Assembly (NCBI GenBank): GCA_035534755.1 | Contig: DATLRH010000005.1 | Coordinates: 83,881 to 147,880, forward strand | Reading direction: 5' to 3' | DNA: 64,000 nucleotides | Origin: Candidatus Dormiibacterota bacterium | GTDB taxonomy: Bacteria > Chloroflexota > Dormibacteria > Aeolococcales > Bog-877 | Part shown: piece by piece, positions 21,688-24,717 of the stretch | Layout of the letters: every line of letters starts with the position of its first letter | How positions within the stretch are numbered: the first letter of the stretch is position 1 | Translations under genes and position numbers: made by a program | The notes under the pieces: generated by a model | What the model was told of the DNA's origin: nothing | The model's database searches: none | What the model saw: the letters and a program-made list of their open reading frames with translations, nothing else

Positions 21688-22932
21688 TCAGGCGACGGCC
21701 GACTCTGCAACTGCCAGGCTGGGATTGAGGCAGAAACCTTCGTAGTCGATCGGCTCGGTTATGGTCGGGCGCTCGCCGCATACCGGGCACAAGGGGTCGC
21801 GCCGGAGCCGGAACGTGTTGAACTCCATCGCCAGGGCGTCGACATGCAGGAGCCGACCGCTGAGGGTCTCGCCGATGCCGAGGATCAGCTTGACAACCTC
21901 GGTAGCCTGGATCATTCCCACCAATCCCGGCAAGACCCCAAGGACGCCCGCCTCGGAGCAGCTGGGGGCCTCCTCGGGGGGCGGCGGCGACGGGTAGCGG
22001 CACCGGTAGCACGGGGACTCCAACGGGATCATGGTGGTCACCTGACCCTCGAAGCGGAAGACCCCGCCATCGACCAGCGGCTTGCGCAGGAATACGGCCA
22101 TGTCATTGGCCAGATAGCGGGTCGGAAAGTTGTCGCTGCCGTTCACGATCAGGTCGTATTGGGCGAAGAGGTCGGCCGCGTTGGAGCTGTCCAAATGGAG
22201 ATTGTGTTCGACCACTTTCACGTCCGGGTTGAGGGCCTTGAGGGCCAAGGCGGCCGACTCGGTCTTGAGCATCCCCAATCGGTCAACCGTGTGCACGATC
22301 TGGCGCTGGAGATTGCTGAGCTCGACGCGGTCGAAGTCCACCAGCCCAATGGTCCCCACTCCGGCGGCGGCCAGGTAGTAGGCGACGGGTGCGCCCAGGC
22401 CACCCGCGCCGAGGAGCAGGACCTTGGCCCCGAGAAGCCGGGCCTGACCATCCTCGCCTACCTCGCTGAGAAGGAAATGTCGGCTGTAGCGCTCGCGCTG
22501 CTCCGGGGTGAAGGCCCGCGGCACCGTGAACGGAAGGCCCTGGTCCTTCCAGGCATTGAATCCGCCTTGGAGCGAACTGACGTGGGAGTAGCCCATCCCC
22601 TGGAGGGTTTTGGCCGCTAGTAGCGAGCGAACGCCGGACGCGCAGTAGACCGTGATCGGCGTCGCGCGATCAGGGATGGCCGCCTCCACTCTGAGTTCGA
22701 GGAACCCTCTCGGTATCAGCACGGCACCGGGGAGAGCGCCCTGAGCGACCTCATCCGGCTCCCTTACATCGAGGACTTGGTGGCTCCCGCTCTCAGCCAG
22801 ATCTGCGCGCAAATCGTGGGCGGCCACCTCGGGAACATCCCGGCGAGCCTCGTCGACAAGCTCCCGCGAACTCACTGCCATCAGCAACGCACTCCCACTC
22901 ACCGTCCTTGGGGCAAAAATCCGACCCGCCAT
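21688..22932 (-). CDS. Rhodanese-domain / ThiF-MoeB (E1-like) adenylyltransferase fusion protein with inverted domain order
   Basis: N-terminal rhodanese with active-site loop VYCASGVRS; C-terminal ThiF/MoeB domain (LLGAKVLLLGAGGLGAPVAYYLAAAGVGTIGLVDFDRVELSNLQRQ) with CYRC...CPVC zinc motif. Confidence 0.75.
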   Translation of the reverse strand: MAGRIFAPRTVSGSALLMAVSSRELVDEARRDVPEVAAHDLRADLAESGSHQVLDVREPDEVAQGALPGAVLIPRGFLELRVEAAIPDRATPITVYCASGVRSLLAAKTLQGMGYSHVSSLQGGFNAWKDQGLPFTVPRAFTPEQRERYSRHFLLSEVGEDGQARLLGAKVLLLGAGGLGAPVAYYLAAAGVGTIGLVDFDRVELSNLQRQIVHTVDRLGMLKTESAALALKALNPDVKVVEHNLHLDSSNAADLFAQYDLIVNGSDNFPTRYLANDMAVFLRKPLVDGGVFRFEGQVTTMIPLESPCYRCRYPSPPPPEEAPSCSEAGVLGVLPGLVGMIQATEVVKLILGIGETLSGRLLHVDALAMEFNTFRLRRDPLCPVCGERPTITEPIDYEGFCLNPSLAVAESAVA

Positions 22933-22962
22933 CCAAGAATACCCGCTAGGGGCGGTGGCGAA

Positions 22963-23331
22963 TCAGGCGGGCAGGCGGCGCATGCTGCCCGCCATCACAT
23001 GAATGTGAAGGTGAGGGACGGTCTGGCCGCCAGCCTGACCCACGCTGACATAAAAGCGGTAGCCCTGGTCGTGACCCAGGTCAGCGGCAACCTCGTTGGC
23101 GACCTGGGTCAAGCGCAGCCAGAGCGATGCGTCCTGGTCTCGGAGATGACGGAGGTCCTCGATATGGCGCTTAGGCACCACCAGCACGTGGGTTTCGGCG
23201 ACCGGGTGAATGTCCTGGAAGGCGATGATTCCAGCTTCCCGATGCACCTCGTCGGAGGGCAACTCCCCGGAGACGATCCGGCAGAAGAGGCAGTCCGAGT
23301 TCATGGCCACATGATAGGCCGCTCCAATCAC
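22963..23331 (-). CDS. HIT family (histidine triad) protein
   Basis: HLHIHVM histidine triad motif; ~110-120 aa. Confidence 0.8.
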   Translation of the reverse strand: MIGAAYHVAMNSDCLFCRIVSGELPSDEVHREAGIIAFQDIHPVAETHVLVVPKRHIEDLRHLRDQDASLWLRLTQVANEVAADLGHDQGYRFYVSVGQAGGQTVPHLHIHVMAGSMRRLPA

Positions 23332-23352
23332 TCCCTCGGCAAGCCTCGGAAC

Positions 23353-24717
23353 TCAGACCGAGCCGCTCTCCAACTCCAGTCCCGCCAGGCCCAGGCGCGC
23401 GATGGCGTCGTCGACCAGCACCACCTTTCGCCCAGCGCGGTCGAGCAGGCTGGCGGCGACCGCGGCTCGGTAACCCGCGCTGCAGTGAACCCAGGTCAAC
23501 CGGTCAGGAAGTTCGTTCAGCCGGGAGGGCAGATCGGGGAGATGGATGTTGATCGAGCCCCTGATGTGCTCCTGGCGCCACTCATCGGGCCTGCGGGCAT
23601 CGAGGATCTGGAGATCCGCGGTGAGTTGGGCCTTGGCGAGCCCTCGGAAGTCGGTCACCGGGTATGAGGACCCACCCTGCGCCGCCTGGAGATCGCCGAG
23701 GGGAGCTCTCACCCACCCGGCGAACTGGTCGATTCCGATCCGGGCCAGATCGCGGCGGGCGTGGCTGACAAGCTCCGGGGACTCAGCCACTACGGTGAGG
23801 GGAGAGCCCCAGGGGACGACCCAGCCGATGTAGGTGGCCAGTTGCTCCTGGGCTGGGAAGTTGACGGTCCCCTTGACGTGGGCGGGTGCGAACTCGGAGC
23901 GGGGTCGGAGGTCGATCACCCACTCACCAGCGCTTATCCTCCGCCCGGCCTCGGGGACGTCGATCTGGGGGGGCAGATCGGGTGCGGGGGCCGCCGCCCC
24001 CTCGAGATTGCGGGCACCCATGTATGCGTAGTAGCGGGGATAGTCGGAGTACCCGGCCAACAGCGCCCGCACGAATCCCTCCTCATCGGCGGTCAGGGCT
24101 GGATTCACCTCACGCTGGCTCCCCAGGCTGAGACCCGCGTCGCTGGGAGAGGAGGCGCCGCTGGCACAGAAGCTGCCAAAGCCATGGGTGGGGAACAGGC
24201 CCAATTCCTCGGGAAGGGCCGCCAGGCGAAGCGCCGATCGATGCTGGAATCGGGCCAGCTCCTCGGTCAGCTCCGGGGAGACCAGGTCGGTGCGCCCGAC
24301 CGCGCCGTAGAGGAGCGAGCCGCCGCTGAAGAGGGCGGCGGGCCGATCGCCGTCGGAGACCACGAAGGCGAGGTGGCTCCGAGTGTGACCGGGGGTGGCC
24401 AGGGCCTGCAGGGTCATCGCTCCCACCTGAACCCGGTCCCCCTCCGACAGCGGTTGACGCAGAAAGGCGACATCCTCGGCGGCGGCGACTAGGTAGCGAG
24501 CCCCGGTCCGCTCGGAAAGCGCCCGGCCGCCCGAGACGTAGTCGTTGTGGATGTGGGTCTCGGCCACAAAGTTGATCTCAATCTTTGCCGAATCGGCCAG
24601 GGAGGTCACCCGGTCGATGTCGCGCTGAGGGTCGATCACGAGGCCCTTGCCGCCGTCGTGGACGAGGTAGGTGCGATTCCCCAGCTCGGGTGTCTCGATG
24701 GTGATCACTTCCAGCAC
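23353..24717 (-). CDS. MBL-fold persulfide dioxygenase-like / rhodanese fusion (CstB/Blh-like)
   Basis: N-terminal metallo-beta-lactamase fold (ETHIHNDYVSG...ATPGHT); C-terminal rhodanese domain with WVHCSAGYRAA Cys loop. Confidence 0.7.
   Translation of the reverse strand: MLEVITIETPELGNRTYLVHDGGKGLVIDPQRDIDRVTSLADSAKIEINFVAETHIHNDYVSGGRALSERTGARYLVAAAEDVAFLRQPLSEGDRVQVGAMTLQALATPGHTRSHLAFVVSDGDRPAALFSGGSLLYGAVGRTDLVSPELTEELARFQHRSALRLAALPEELGLFPTHGFGSFCASGASSPSDAGLSLGSQREVNPALTADEEGFVRALLAGYSDYPRYYAYMGARNLEGAAAPAPDLPPQIDVPEAGRRISAGEWVIDLRPRSEFAPAHVKGTVNFPAQEQLATYIGWVVPWGSPLTVVAESPELVSHARRDLARIGIDQFAGWVRAPLGDLQAAQGGSSYPVTDFRGLAKAQLTADLQILDARRPDEWRQEHIRGSINIHLPDLPSRLNELPDRLTWVHCSAGYRAAVAASLLDRAGRKVVLVDDAIARLGLAGLELESGSV

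What the first reader, a model, noticed from the sequence alone, without database searches (positions are those of the whole stretch)
21688..24717. Sulfur-trafficking gene cluster: inverted rhodanese-ThiF fusion, HIT protein and CstB-like PDO-rhodanese fusion
Three co-directional genes carry three rhodanese modules between them. The first protein has a rhodanese domain (active-site CASGVRS) N-terminal to a ThiF/MoeB adenylyltransferase domain with CxxC...CxxC zinc. This is the reverse of the canonical MoeZ/MOCS3 order, where ThiF comes first and rhodanese last. Next is a HIT (HxHxH) protein. Last is an MBL-fold dioxygenase-like domain fused to a rhodanese domain (WVHCSAGYR), as in CstB/Blh persulfide dioxygenases. 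No ThiS/MoaD/CysO-type carrier ending in GG is evident nearby. The partner substrate (sulfur carrier, persulfide detoxification, or thiocarboxylate formation) is therefore undefined.
Basis: partly seen in the sequence, partly recalled or inferred. Interest (0 to 1): 0.6.

Follow-up and report, generated by a model that had tools for sequence, protein, structure and literature searches.

The report
Known rhodanese-ThiF enzyme beside sulfur genes
The three genes are real, but the "inverted" rhodanese-ThiF protein belongs to an already curated, widespread enzyme family, and its neighbours (a HIT hydrolase and a CstB-like protein lacking one iron-binding residue) sit beside it only in one narrow bacterial lineage, so the locus is mostly ordinary.

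Summary
Three co-directional minus-strand genes in a Candidatus Dormibacterota chromosome encode an MBL/pseudo-rhodanese/rhodanese protein (23353-24717), a Hint-type HIT protein (22963-23331) and a rhodanese-then-ThiF protein (21688-22881, or 22932 from the upstream ATG). No GG-ended carrier lies in the 64 kb window.

- The "inverted" fusion matches NCBIfam NF006444 (PRK08762, named MoeB) over its full length and above the cutoff.
- In 17 of 53 loci outside the close Dormibacteria, this family sits beside a CysO-like carrier, usually with CysM-like and JAB genes. In two of these loci the carrier is fused to it (ThiS-Rhodanese-ThiF).
- It is therefore most likely an E1-like activator and sulfurtransferase for a carrier encoded elsewhere.
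- HIT adjacency is limited to 27 Dormibacteria species. CstB-like adjacency is limited to 16, inside a 20 kb block that is syntenic throughout. That is weak evidence for a dedicated pathway.

One unexpected detail stands out. The CstB-like protein and all 120 of its closest homologs have Gly where CstB has its iron ligand Asp145, yet both catalytic cysteines are kept. In Actinomycetota this subfamily often neighbours SQR.

Interest is low to moderate.

The parts
21688..22881 (-). Rhodanese-ThiF adenylyltransferase/sulfurtransferase of the NF006444/PRK08762 family. It is 397 aa from Met18; the ORF could also start at the ATG at 22932, giving 414 aa. In 414-aa numbering, the rhodanese domain is aa 40-130 (nt 22543-22815) with Cys97 at nt 22642-22644. 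The ThiF domain is aa 149-384 (nt 21781-22488).
   Evidence: Pfam. NCBIfam 540 bits against a 449 cutoff, matching model positions 4-385 of 387. Motifs are invariant across 54 family members. The start choice rests.
22963..23331 (-). Hint-type histidine-triad (HIT) nucleotide hydrolase/phosphoramidase of 122 aa. The HLHIHVM motif is at aa 107-113. The true start may be Met10.
   Evidence: Pfam HIT E 6e-22. Best PDB hits are HIT/HINT1 proteins, E 3e-26. NCBIfam HinT equivalog cutoffs are not reached. The 113-aa orthologue in L024 starts at the Met10 equivalent.
23353..24717 (-). CstB-architecture protein of 454 aa. It has an MBL/PDO-like domain (aa ~1-235), a cysteine-free pseudo-rhodanese domain (aa ~250-345) and a catalytic rhodanese domain (aa ~355-445, Cys412). 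Gly133 (nt 24319-24321) replaces the Asp iron ligand. His55, His111 and Cys184 are retained.
   Evidence: Full-length alignments to 3TP9 and 3R2U. CstB ligands H56/H119/D145 and C201 are taken from PMC12934615 and mapped by residue counting. Subfamily conservation is shown.
24718..25058 (.). Divergent intergenic region between the CstB-like gene and the oppositely oriented FolD-like gene. It is the probable promoter region of the trio.
   Evidence: Gene calls. A GAGGAG ribosome-binding site lies 8 nt before the GTG at 24717. No sigma-70 consensus and no Rfam element were found.
21318..21533 (-). orf71, a co-directional downstream gene 154 nt after Rhd-ThiF. It is nearly invariant across Dormibacteria and predicted to be a helical hairpin with an acidic tail ending in WPDMS. 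It is not a beta-grasp carrier.
   Evidence: Alignment of 26 orthologues shows the internal GG is not conserved. The AlphaFold model has two helices, pLDDT 77.5. There are no Pfam or NCBIfam hits and no significant fold match.
20184..21266 (-). orf360, a co-directional downstream gene with an invariant HExGHA motif and an EDPRGG motif. It is a Dormibacteria-restricted orphan and possibly a zinc metallopeptidase.
   Evidence: Alignment A2. Only 7 clusters match among 1.84 billion representative proteins. There are no Pfam, NCBIfam or PDB hits. The structure model is unusable, pLDDT 35.

Best explanation
The locus holds three sulfur-related housekeeping genes that sit next to each other in one lineage. 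It is probably not a dedicated new pathway.

Rhd-ThiF gene:
- It is an ordinary member of the curated NF006444/PRK08762 family.
- Its ThiF domain binds ATP (GxGGLGxP, Arg210, Asp267, and a structural zinc held by two CxxC pairs). It adenylates the C-terminal glycine of a ThiS/MoaD/CysO-type beta-grasp carrier.
- Cys97 of the N-terminal rhodanese domain carries a persulfide, presumably loaded by a cysteine desulfurase. That persulfide attacks the acyl-adenylate. Resolution, possibly through the invariant Cys325, leaves a carrier thiocarboxylate.
- The thiocarboxylate would supply sulfur for cysteine (CysM route), molybdopterin and/or thiamin.
- In this genome the carrier is encoded outside the 64 kb window.

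HIT gene: it encodes a generic Hint-type AMP-derivative hydrolase.

Third gene:
- It has the CstB three-domain architecture and keeps both CstB catalytic cysteines.
- It belongs to a distinct subfamily, found in Dormibacterota and Actinomycetota, that lacks the Asp iron ligand.
- It most likely handles persulfide or sulfane sulfur downstream of sulfide oxidation. Its chemistry (dioxygenase or not) is unproven.

Shown here: the domain architectures, motif conservation, family membership, and neighbourhood statistics.
Inferred by homology to MoeZR, MOCS3/Uba4 and CstB: the catalytic steps and the sulfur source.
For: Family membership: NF006444 hit at 540 bits against a 449 cutoff, over the full length. 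Nine relatives from other phyla score 519-615 bits on the same model.

Conserved catalytic residues: Cys97, the ATP loop, Arg210, Asp267 and Cys325 are invariant in 54/54 sequences. Both CxxC pairs are present in 52/54.

Link to carriers:
- Seventeen of 53 non-Dormibacteria loci have a CysO-like gene within 10 kb. Fourteen have a CysM-like gene and about 14 have a JAB gene.
- The L064 neighbours pass the NCBIfam SAMP1/MoaD cutoffs.
- L056 and L071 encode ThiS-Rhodanese-ThiF as one ORF, flanked by Prok-JAB and PALP genes.
- This operon type (carrier, E1-rhodanese, JAB, cysteine synthase) was described by Iyer et al. 2006 (PMC1779556).
- The MoeZR mechanism and its dual CysO/MoaD role are documented in PMC3227635.

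Neighbour adjacency is narrow.

CstB-like gene:
- Architecture and cysteines.
- Three of six sampled actinobacterial subfamily loci have an adjacent type II SQR. Its identity was confirmed at E 1.9e-105 against human SQOR.

Possible persulfide source: a cysteine desulfurase and a SUF operon lie at 38-46 kb in the window.
Against: - No carrier, CysM, JAB, MoaE or ThiG gene was found in the window. I could not search the rest of any Dormibacteria genome, so the partner is inferred and not seen.
- The three genes are co-directional with gaps of only 21 and about 30-81 nt, and they are kept together in 16 species. This is compatible with co-transcription and a shared role.
- No member of NF006444 with a published biochemical characterisation turned up in my literature searches. 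The "MoeB" name is therefore an annotation, not a tested function.
- The missing Asp ligand means the CstB analogy may fail for the third gene.
Confidence: 0.68

Rival explanations
1. This is the first reader's view: the three genes form a dedicated sulfur-relay operon. The CstB-like protein captures or processes persulfide. Its rhodanese Cys412 hands sulfane sulfur to Cys97 of Rhd-ThiF. Rhd-ThiF thiocarboxylates a carrier, and the HIT enzyme hydrolyses stalled or mis-formed acyl-adenylates.
For: The genes share a strand and have very short intergenic gaps. The order is conserved in 16 Dormibacteria species. Two catalytic rhodanese cysteines are invariant. HIT enzymes hydrolyse AMP-linked substrates and release H2S from nucleoside thiophosphates (PMC8775712; this is a lead only).
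Against: The whole 20 kb region is syntenic in these genomes, so adjacency carries little information. Eleven related species keep HIT and Rhd-ThiF but have no CstB-like gene there, or have an MFS-type transporter on the other strand instead. No HIT or MBL-rhodanese gene lies within 10 kb of Rhd-ThiF in 53 other loci, by profile HMM. Elsewhere each family has different partners: CysO/CysM/JAB for Rhd-ThiF and SQR for the CstB-like subfamily.
Confidence: 0.15
2. Rhd-ThiF is strictly the molybdopterin-synthase activator, as NCBI's name MoeB says. It would serve only MoaD for molybdenum cofactor synthesis, which Dormibacterota need for CO dehydrogenase.
For: NF006444 is named MoeB. Both CxxC motifs are present, which PMC3227635 gives as the MoeB/MoeBR signature as opposed to MoeZ. 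Papers co-mention Dormibacterota and carbon monoxide dehydrogenase (titles only, not read in depth).
Against: The only conserved genomic partners seen for the family are CysO-type carriers with a cysteine synthase and JAB, not moaE/moaA/moaC. No Moco genes lie in the window. MoeZR shows that one such enzyme can serve several carriers.
Confidence: 0.12
3. Rhd-ThiF acts on the product of the co-conserved downstream gene orf71 (or on another non-beta-grasp peptide), with orf360 (HExxH) as its processing protease. This would be a lineage-specific E1-like peptide-modification system, by analogy with MccB or PaaA.
For: orf71 and orf360 follow Rhd-ThiF on the same strand in 24-26 Dormibacteria loci. 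orf71 is almost invariant and has a flexible acidic tail. orf360 has an invariant HExGH motif.
Against: orf71 is a helical hairpin, its internal GG is not conserved, and it ends in WPDMS. A 154-nt gap separates it from Rhd-ThiF, and in L017 the two are 2.4 kb apart. Orthologous Rhd-ThiF proteins in other phyla lack both genes and pair with CysO. orf360 is a clade-restricted orphan.
Confidence: 0.05

Closest known systems
NCBIfam NF006444 / PRK08762 "molybdopterin-synthase adenylyltransferase MoeB" (N-terminal rhodanese plus ThiF)
   Same: Same domain order, full-length match above the curated cutoff, and all catalytic and zinc motifs present.
   Different: Nothing structural differs. In this genome the usual CysO/CysM/JAB neighbours are absent, and a HIT gene and a CstB-like gene flank it instead.
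MoeZR (M. tuberculosis Rv3206c), MOCS3 and Uba4: E1-like enzymes with a C-terminal rhodanese domain
   Same: Same two catalytic modules, and the same expected chemistry: carrier adenylation followed by persulfide-mediated thiocarboxylation. The ThiF domain aligns to Uba4 at E 4e-59.
   Different: The rhodanese domain is N-terminal. The protein scores 370 bits against the 647 cutoff of the MoeZ model. It has both CxxC motifs, which MoeZ/MoeZR mostly lack. No solved structure spans both domains in this order.
CstB (S. aureus; PDB 3R2U and newer structures), 3TP9, and type III persulfide dioxygenases
   Same: Same three-domain layout of MBL, pseudo-rhodanese and rhodanese. The equivalents of CstB His56, His58, His119, Cys201 and the rhodanese cysteine are all conserved.
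   Different: The Asp145 iron ligand is Gly133, and motif 2 reads HxHNDY rather than HxHADF. Both features are invariant in 121 subfamily sequences. There is no cstR/cstA/sqr context in the window. The protein scores 28 bits against the 625 cutoff of the Blh model.
CysO-CysM-Mec+ sulfur-carrier cysteine pathway (M. tuberculosis; operon type 4c of Iyer et al. 2006)
   Same: Family members of the window's Rhd-ThiF are embedded in exactly this gene set in Chloroflexota, Solirubrobacterales, Acidobacteriota, Planctomycetota and a Pseudomonadota MAG.
   Different: None of the three partner genes lies in this 64 kb window or in any of the 30 Dormibacterota loci.
Hint/HinT branch of the HIT superfamily
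   Same: HxHxHxx motif, size, and best matches to bacterial HIT proteins and human HINT1.
   Different: It falls below the NCBIfam equivalog cutoffs for HinT (64 against 206 bits). The substrate is unknown.

Membership tests
NF006444/PRK08762 (rhodanese-ThiF "MoeB") | Whole-protein score above the curated cutoff, with end-to-end model coverage | tested here: met
   540.3 bits against a 449 cutoff. Protein aa 23-403 match model positions 4-385 of 387.
NF006444/PRK08762 (rhodanese-ThiF "MoeB") | Rhodanese domain N-terminal to the ThiF domain in one polypeptide | tested here: met
   Pfam Rhodanese at aa 40-130, then ThiF at aa 149-384, in a single ORF.
NF006444/PRK08762 (rhodanese-ThiF "MoeB") | Catalytic rhodanese Cys, ATP-binding Gly-rich loop, conserved Arg and Asp, and a CxxC...CxxC zinc site | tested here: met
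   Cys97, G175-P182, Arg210, Asp267 and Cys325 are invariant in 54/54 sequences. C308/C311 and C382/C385 are present in 52/54.
NF006444/PRK08762 (rhodanese-ThiF "MoeB") | Adenylation and thiocarboxylation of a MoaD/CysO-type carrier | not testable with these tools
   This needs biochemistry. Only genomic linkage and two gene fusions support it.
MoeZ/MoeZR (NF005902) | [quoted passage not shown] | tested here: not met
   369.8 bits against a 647 cutoff. Only the ThiF part aligns, and the rhodanese domain is N-terminal.
MoeZ/MoeZR (NF005902) | First CxxC replaced by NYRD and second CxxC mostly missing (PMC3227635) | tested here: not met
   The window protein has CYRC and CPVC.
CstB / type III persulfide dioxygenase | MBL(PDO), pseudo-rhodanese and rhodanese three-domain architecture | tested here: met
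   Alignment of aa 13-428 to 3TP9 and aa 15-431 to 3R2U. The middle domain has no Cys.
CstB / type III persulfide dioxygenase | 2-His-1-Asp facial triad binding Fe(II) (CstB H56, H119, D145) | tested here: not met
   H55 and H111 are present, but position 133 is Gly. Gly is invariant in the window protein plus 120 homologs and in 15 Dormibacteria orthologues.
CstB / type III persulfide dioxygenase | Active-site loop Cys (CstB C201) and rhodanese Cys (CstB C408) | tested here: met
   C184 and C412 are the only cysteines in the protein. Both are invariant in 121/121 sequences.
CstB / type III persulfide dioxygenase | O2-dependent oxidation of persulfides | not testable with these tools
Supportive context only: an SQR gene is adjacent in 3 of 6 actinobacterial loci of the same subfamily.
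Blh bifunctional sulfurtransferase/dioxygenase (NF040641) | Score above the curated cutoff | tested here: not met
   27.8 bits against a 625 cutoff.
HIT superfamily, Hint branch | HIT domain with the HxHxHxx motif | tested here: met
   PF01230 scores 78.6 bits against a 21.5 cutoff. HLHIHVM is at aa 107-113.
HinT (NF007965 purine nucleoside phosphoramidase equivalog) | Score above the curated cutoff | tested here: not met
   63.9 bits against a 206 cutoff.
CysO-CysM-Mec+ operon | A ThiS/MoaD-type carrier, a cysteine synthase and a JAB peptidase encoded next to the E1-like gene | tested here: not met
   None is present in the window or in the 30 Dormibacterota loci. They are present in 17, 14 and about 14 of the other 53 loci respectively.

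The most novel reading that the evidence does not exclude
The Gly133 subfamily (Dormibacterota and Actinomycetota) may be a CstB-architecture enzyme that has abandoned the 2-His-1-Asp iron site. It would then use a different metal site or a non-oxidative, cysteine-based chemistry on persulfides. In Dormibacteria it might be recruited to load sulfane sulfur onto the neighbouring N-terminal-rhodanese E1-like enzyme, with the HIT protein editing adenylates. That would make the trio a lineage-specific sulfur-supply module for carrier thiocarboxylation.
Probability: 0.12. Interest if true: 0.55.

Novelty: new member of a known kind. Interest (0 to 1): 0.25.

Why it matters
- The apparent novelty, a reversed rhodanese/E1 fusion, is already a curated family. 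Flagging it as new would be a false lead.
- The survey gives that family a better-founded functional label than its "MoeB" name. It links repeatedly to CysO-type carriers, cysteine synthase and JAB peptidase, and two natural carrier-rhodanese-E1 fusions exist.
- The work also exposes a large, unnamed subfamily of CstB-like proteins that lacks a canonical iron ligand but is often encoded beside SQR. This could affect how "type III persulfide dioxygenases" are counted in genomes, and it deserves a simple biochemical test.

Tried and rejected
- **orf71 as the missing carrier.** Rejected. It has an internal GG, but the GG is not conserved, the protein ends in WPDMS, and the model is a two-helix hairpin rather than a beta-grasp. 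The Foldseek search against PDB gave nothing significant, best E 1.2.
- **orf360 as a JAB-like processing protease.** Unresolved. There are no Pfam, NCBIfam or PDB-profile hits, and the single-sequence AlphaFold model is useless at pLDDT 35. Only 7 homologous clusters exist.
- **Finding a Dormibacterota sulfur carrier.** I searched the protein database with a CysO profile.
- **Riboswitch or other RNA element upstream (for example Moco or SAM).** None was found.
- **Promoter and terminator scan to define the operon.** Uninformative: no promoter-like sites, and one terminator-like site on the other strand.
- **Checking whether the active S. coelicolor ScPDO (SCO0618) has Gly or Asp at the ligand position.** The paper's alignment is a figure and is not held as text.
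- **Fold search against afdb50.** The library was unavailable.
- **Literature search for "histidine triad" with "thiocarboxylate".** No papers.

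
Full report
**Source and gene map.** The window is about 68% G+C. It is identical, at protein level, to contigs of a Candidatus Dormibacterota metagenome-assembled genome. The finding's three ORFs are all on the minus strand:
- 23353-24717 (454 aa)
- 22963-23331 (122 aa)
- 21688-22932 (414 aa)

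They coincide with independent gene calls. Those calls, the 394-402 aa lengths of homologs, and a GGGAG 10 nt upstream favour Met18 (nt 22881, 397 aa) as the start of the last gene. The gaps between the genes are 21 nt and 30-81 nt. A 340-nt divergent region separates the first gene from a FolD-like gene.

The surrounding genes are housekeeping:
- On one side: histidine utilisation genes, a MurE-like ligase, an alcohol dehydrogenase and the FolD-like gene.
- On the other side: five hypothetical genes, tRNA-Val, the S6-SSB-S18 cluster, a ROK gene, SerA and ArgRS.
- About 15-23 kb away: a SUF iron-sulfur operon with an Rrf2 regulator and a class-V aminotransferase (cysteine desulfurase type).

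**Checking the observation.**
- The last gene has Pfam Rhodanese at aa 40-130, then ThiF at aa 149-384. CASGVRS is at 97-103, and CYRC and CPVC are at 308-311 and 382-385.
- The middle gene is a HIT protein with HLHIHVM.
[quoted passage not shown] It aligns end to end with 3TP9 (E 3.6e-57) and with S. aureus CstB, PDB 3R2U (E 5e-39). That alignment includes a middle rhodanese-like domain with no cysteine.
- No credible GG-terminated small ORF, CysO-profile match, CysM gene or JAB gene exists in the 64 kb.

**The "inverted" fusion is a known family.** Against NCBIfam the protein scores 540 bits on the equivalog NF006444 (PRK08762, named MoeB). The cutoff is 449, and the match covers model positions 4-385 of 387, which means the model itself contains the N-terminal rhodanese domain. 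By contrast it fails the MoeZ model (370 against 647 bits), where only the ThiF part aligns.

The protein database search returned 8000 homologs at E<=1e-20, which is the search's candidate cap. The best 120 all carry both domains at about 395-400 aa. A scan of one genome per species returned 80 loci from Dormibacterota, Binatia and "delta proteobacterium" MAGs, Chloroflexota, Actinomycetota, Acidobacteriota, Planctomycetota and a Pseudomonadota MAG. Nine sampled relatives all pass the NF006444 cutoff, at 519-615 bits.

Across the window protein and 53 distant members, the following are conserved:
- The rhodanese cysteine, the ATP loop, Arg210, Asp267 and Cys325 are invariant.
- Both CxxC pairs are present in 52 of 54.

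By the criterion in PMC3227635, two CxxC motifs mark MoeB/MoeBR as opposed to MoeZ/MoeZR, so the ThiF domain is MoeB-like. No PDB entry spans both domains in this order. I found no paper characterising a member biochemically. The architecture is therefore catalogued, but its function is annotated, not demonstrated.

**What the family does, judged from context.** I clustered all ORFs within 5 kb of the gene in the 80 loci. I then followed up with tblastn and a profile HMM over the full ±10 kb loci.
- In 17 of the 53 loci outside the close Dormibacteria, a 90-96 aa ThiS/MoaD-family gene lies within 10 kb. Its product ends ...P-A-[MV]-A-G-G, as M. tuberculosis CysO does.
- Fourteen of these loci have a cysteine-synthase-like PLP enzyme, and about 14 have a Prok-JAB peptidase.
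- The L064 neighbours pass the NCBIfam SAMP1 and MoaD-family cutoffs and match CysK/CysM models.
- Several carriers have one to four residues after the GG, which fits processing by the JAB enzyme.
- In L056 and L071 the carrier is fused in frame, giving ThiS-Rhodanese-ThiF in one ORF, with JAB upstream and the PLP enzyme downstream.

This matches operon type 4c of Iyer et al. 2006 (PMC1779556) and the CysO-CysM-Mec+ pathway. In that pathway MoeZR adenylates and thiocarboxylates CysO, and also MoaD (PMC3227635).

The most likely mechanism for the window enzyme is therefore the standard one. The ThiF domain adenylates the carrier's C-terminus. A persulfide on Cys97 attacks the adenylate, and a thiocarboxylate is released. 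These steps are inferred by homology. The carrier was not found in this window.

**Is the trio a functional cluster?** The evidence is weak.
- Among the 30 loci at 66% or more identity to the query, most labelled Dormibacterota, 16 have CstB-like, HIT, Rhd-ThiF, orf71 and orf360 in that order.
- Eleven have HIT, Rhd-ThiF, orf71 and orf360 but no CstB-like gene. In these the slot is empty or holds an MFS-type transporter on the opposite strand.
- Three have neither neighbour.
- In the genomes with the trio, the entire 20 kb is collinear, from the hut genes to the ribosomal protein cluster. Adjacency there reflects shallow divergence.
- Profile HMMs built from the Dormibacteria HIT and CstB-like proteins find no such gene within 10 kb of Rhd-ThiF in any of the 53 other loci.

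The short gaps and shared strand still allow co-transcription. I therefore keep the relay-operon idea as a minority rival.

**The CstB-like protein.** The recent CstB structures give the Fe(II) ligands as H56, H119 and D145, with C201 on a mobile loop near the iron (PMC12934615). I mapped these by counting residues in the HMMER alignment to 3R2U:

| CstB residue | Window residue |
|---|---|
| H56 | H55 |
| H119 | H111 |
| D145 | G133 |
| C201 | C184 |
| Rhodanese Cys | C412 |

Gly133 is invariant in 15 Dormibacteria orthologues and in all 120 best database homologs. Those homologs are at 49-75% identity, and their names include Acidimicrobiales, Streptosporangiaceae and Streptomycetales. They also share HxHNDY, TPGHT, [ST]GGS[LM]L[YF]G and PTHGFGSFC.

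This is therefore a distinct, conserved subfamily and not a decayed copy. It keeps CstB's two catalytic cysteines but lacks the carboxylate of the facial triad.

In six sampled actinobacterial loci of this subfamily:
- Three have an adjacent type II sulfide:quinone oxidoreductase. Its identity was confirmed at E 1.9e-105 against human SQOR.
- Two of those three also have a Psr-like molybdoenzyme.

A role in sulfide or persulfide metabolism is therefore likely. Dioxygenase chemistry is not established, and the window has no SQR. I could not determine whether the experimentally active S. coelicolor ScPDO belongs to this subfamily.

**The HIT protein and downstream genes.** The HIT protein is a generic Hint-type enzyme. 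It falls below the equivalog cutoffs, so no specific function can be assigned.

orf71 and orf360 follow Rhd-ThiF in 24-26 Dormibacteria loci.
- orf71 is almost invariant, but it is a helical hairpin with an acidic tail and a non-conserved GG. It is not the missing carrier.
- orf360 carries an invariant HExGH motif. It has only seven homologous clusters among 1.84 billion representative proteins, and no detectable relatives in Pfam, NCBIfam or PDB. Its structure could not be modelled.

**Verdict.** The interpretation overstates both the novelty and the unity of the locus.
- The Rhd-ThiF gene is a new member of a known, curated family. Its likely job is sulfur-carrier activation, with the carrier encoded elsewhere.
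- The HIT gene is ordinary.
- The CstB-like gene belongs to an uncharacterised Asp-less subfamily. This is the only mildly surprising element.

Interest is 0.25.

Noticed in passing
L056:9332-10951 and L071:9527-11170: Natural triple fusion: ThiS (CysO-like), Rhodanese and ThiF in a single ORF of 539 or 547 aa. It is flanked by a Prok-JAB gene and a PALP (cysteine-synthase-like) gene, in a Pseudomonadota MAG and an Acidobacteriota MAG. The carrier's GG would have to be exposed by proteolysis.
   Followed up: partly
L049, L050, L052, L053, L054, L055, L058, L060, L065, L066, L070, L077 (CysO-like ORFs; coordinates): Many CysO-like carriers next to Rhd-ThiF do not end at GG. They carry 1-4 extra residues (GGW, GGQ, GGS, GGAA, GGC, GGQPTR, GGGPA), and L054 has a longer tail. 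This suggests obligatory C-terminal processing, presumably by the adjacent JAB peptidase.
   Followed up: partly
window 24319-24321 (Gly133 codon of the CstB-like gene); P0121-P0240: A whole subfamily of MBL/pseudo-rhodanese/rhodanese proteins in Dormibacterota and Actinomycetota has Gly instead of the iron-binding Asp of CstB/ETHE1-type persulfide dioxygenases. It keeps both CstB catalytic cysteines.
   Followed up: partly
L084:4440-5645, L085:7415-8629, L086:6483-7694: Type II sulfide:quinone oxidoreductase genes lie directly beside actinobacterial members of the Gly subfamily. L085 and L086 also carry a Psr/Nrf-like molybdopterin oxidoreductase with NrfD and 4Fe-4S subunits. L084 and L086 also carry a YceI-like gene.
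   Followed up: partly
window 21318-21533 (-): orf71 is a 71-aa protein that is nearly 100% conserved across Dormibacteria, more conserved than the enzymes around it. It is predicted to be a two-helix hairpin with an acidic tail ending in an invariant WPDMS. It has no family assignment.
   Followed up: partly
window 20184-21266 (-): orf360 has invariant HExGHA, EDPRGG, GWLPxP and PWR motifs, so it may be a zinc metallopeptidase. It is restricted to Dormibacteria: only 7 clusters match among 1.84 billion representative proteins.
   Followed up: partly
window 25059-26342 (+): FolD-like protein of 427 aa, with a weak catalytic-domain match and a C-terminal extension of about 140 aa beyond the usual ~285-aa FolD. 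It is conserved next to the trio in Dormibacteria.
   Followed up: no
window 38112-46364 (-): SUF iron-sulfur assembly cluster. In order from 38.1 to 46.4 kb the genes with Pfam matches are SufT-like (FeS_assembly_P), a Rieske protein, SufD-like, SufB, SufC, an Rrf2 regulator and a class-V aminotransferase (cysteine desulfurase type). This is a plausible persulfide source for rhodanese domains.
   Followed up: no
window 47795-48565 (-): PIG-L family deacetylase, the family of MshB/BshB. It hints at a low-molecular-weight thiol pathway that could define the physiological persulfide substrate.
   Followed up: no
L088:3872-4987: In one actinobacterial locus the Gly-subfamily gene starts 14 nt after a 371-aa class-I tRNA-synthetase 1e-like gene (CysRS/MshC type).
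   Followed up: no
L024:8196-9482 (-): In Dormibacteria that lack the CstB-like gene, the same slot can hold a 428-aa MFS-like membrane transporter on the opposite strand. This position is therefore a variable insertion point.
   Followed up: partly
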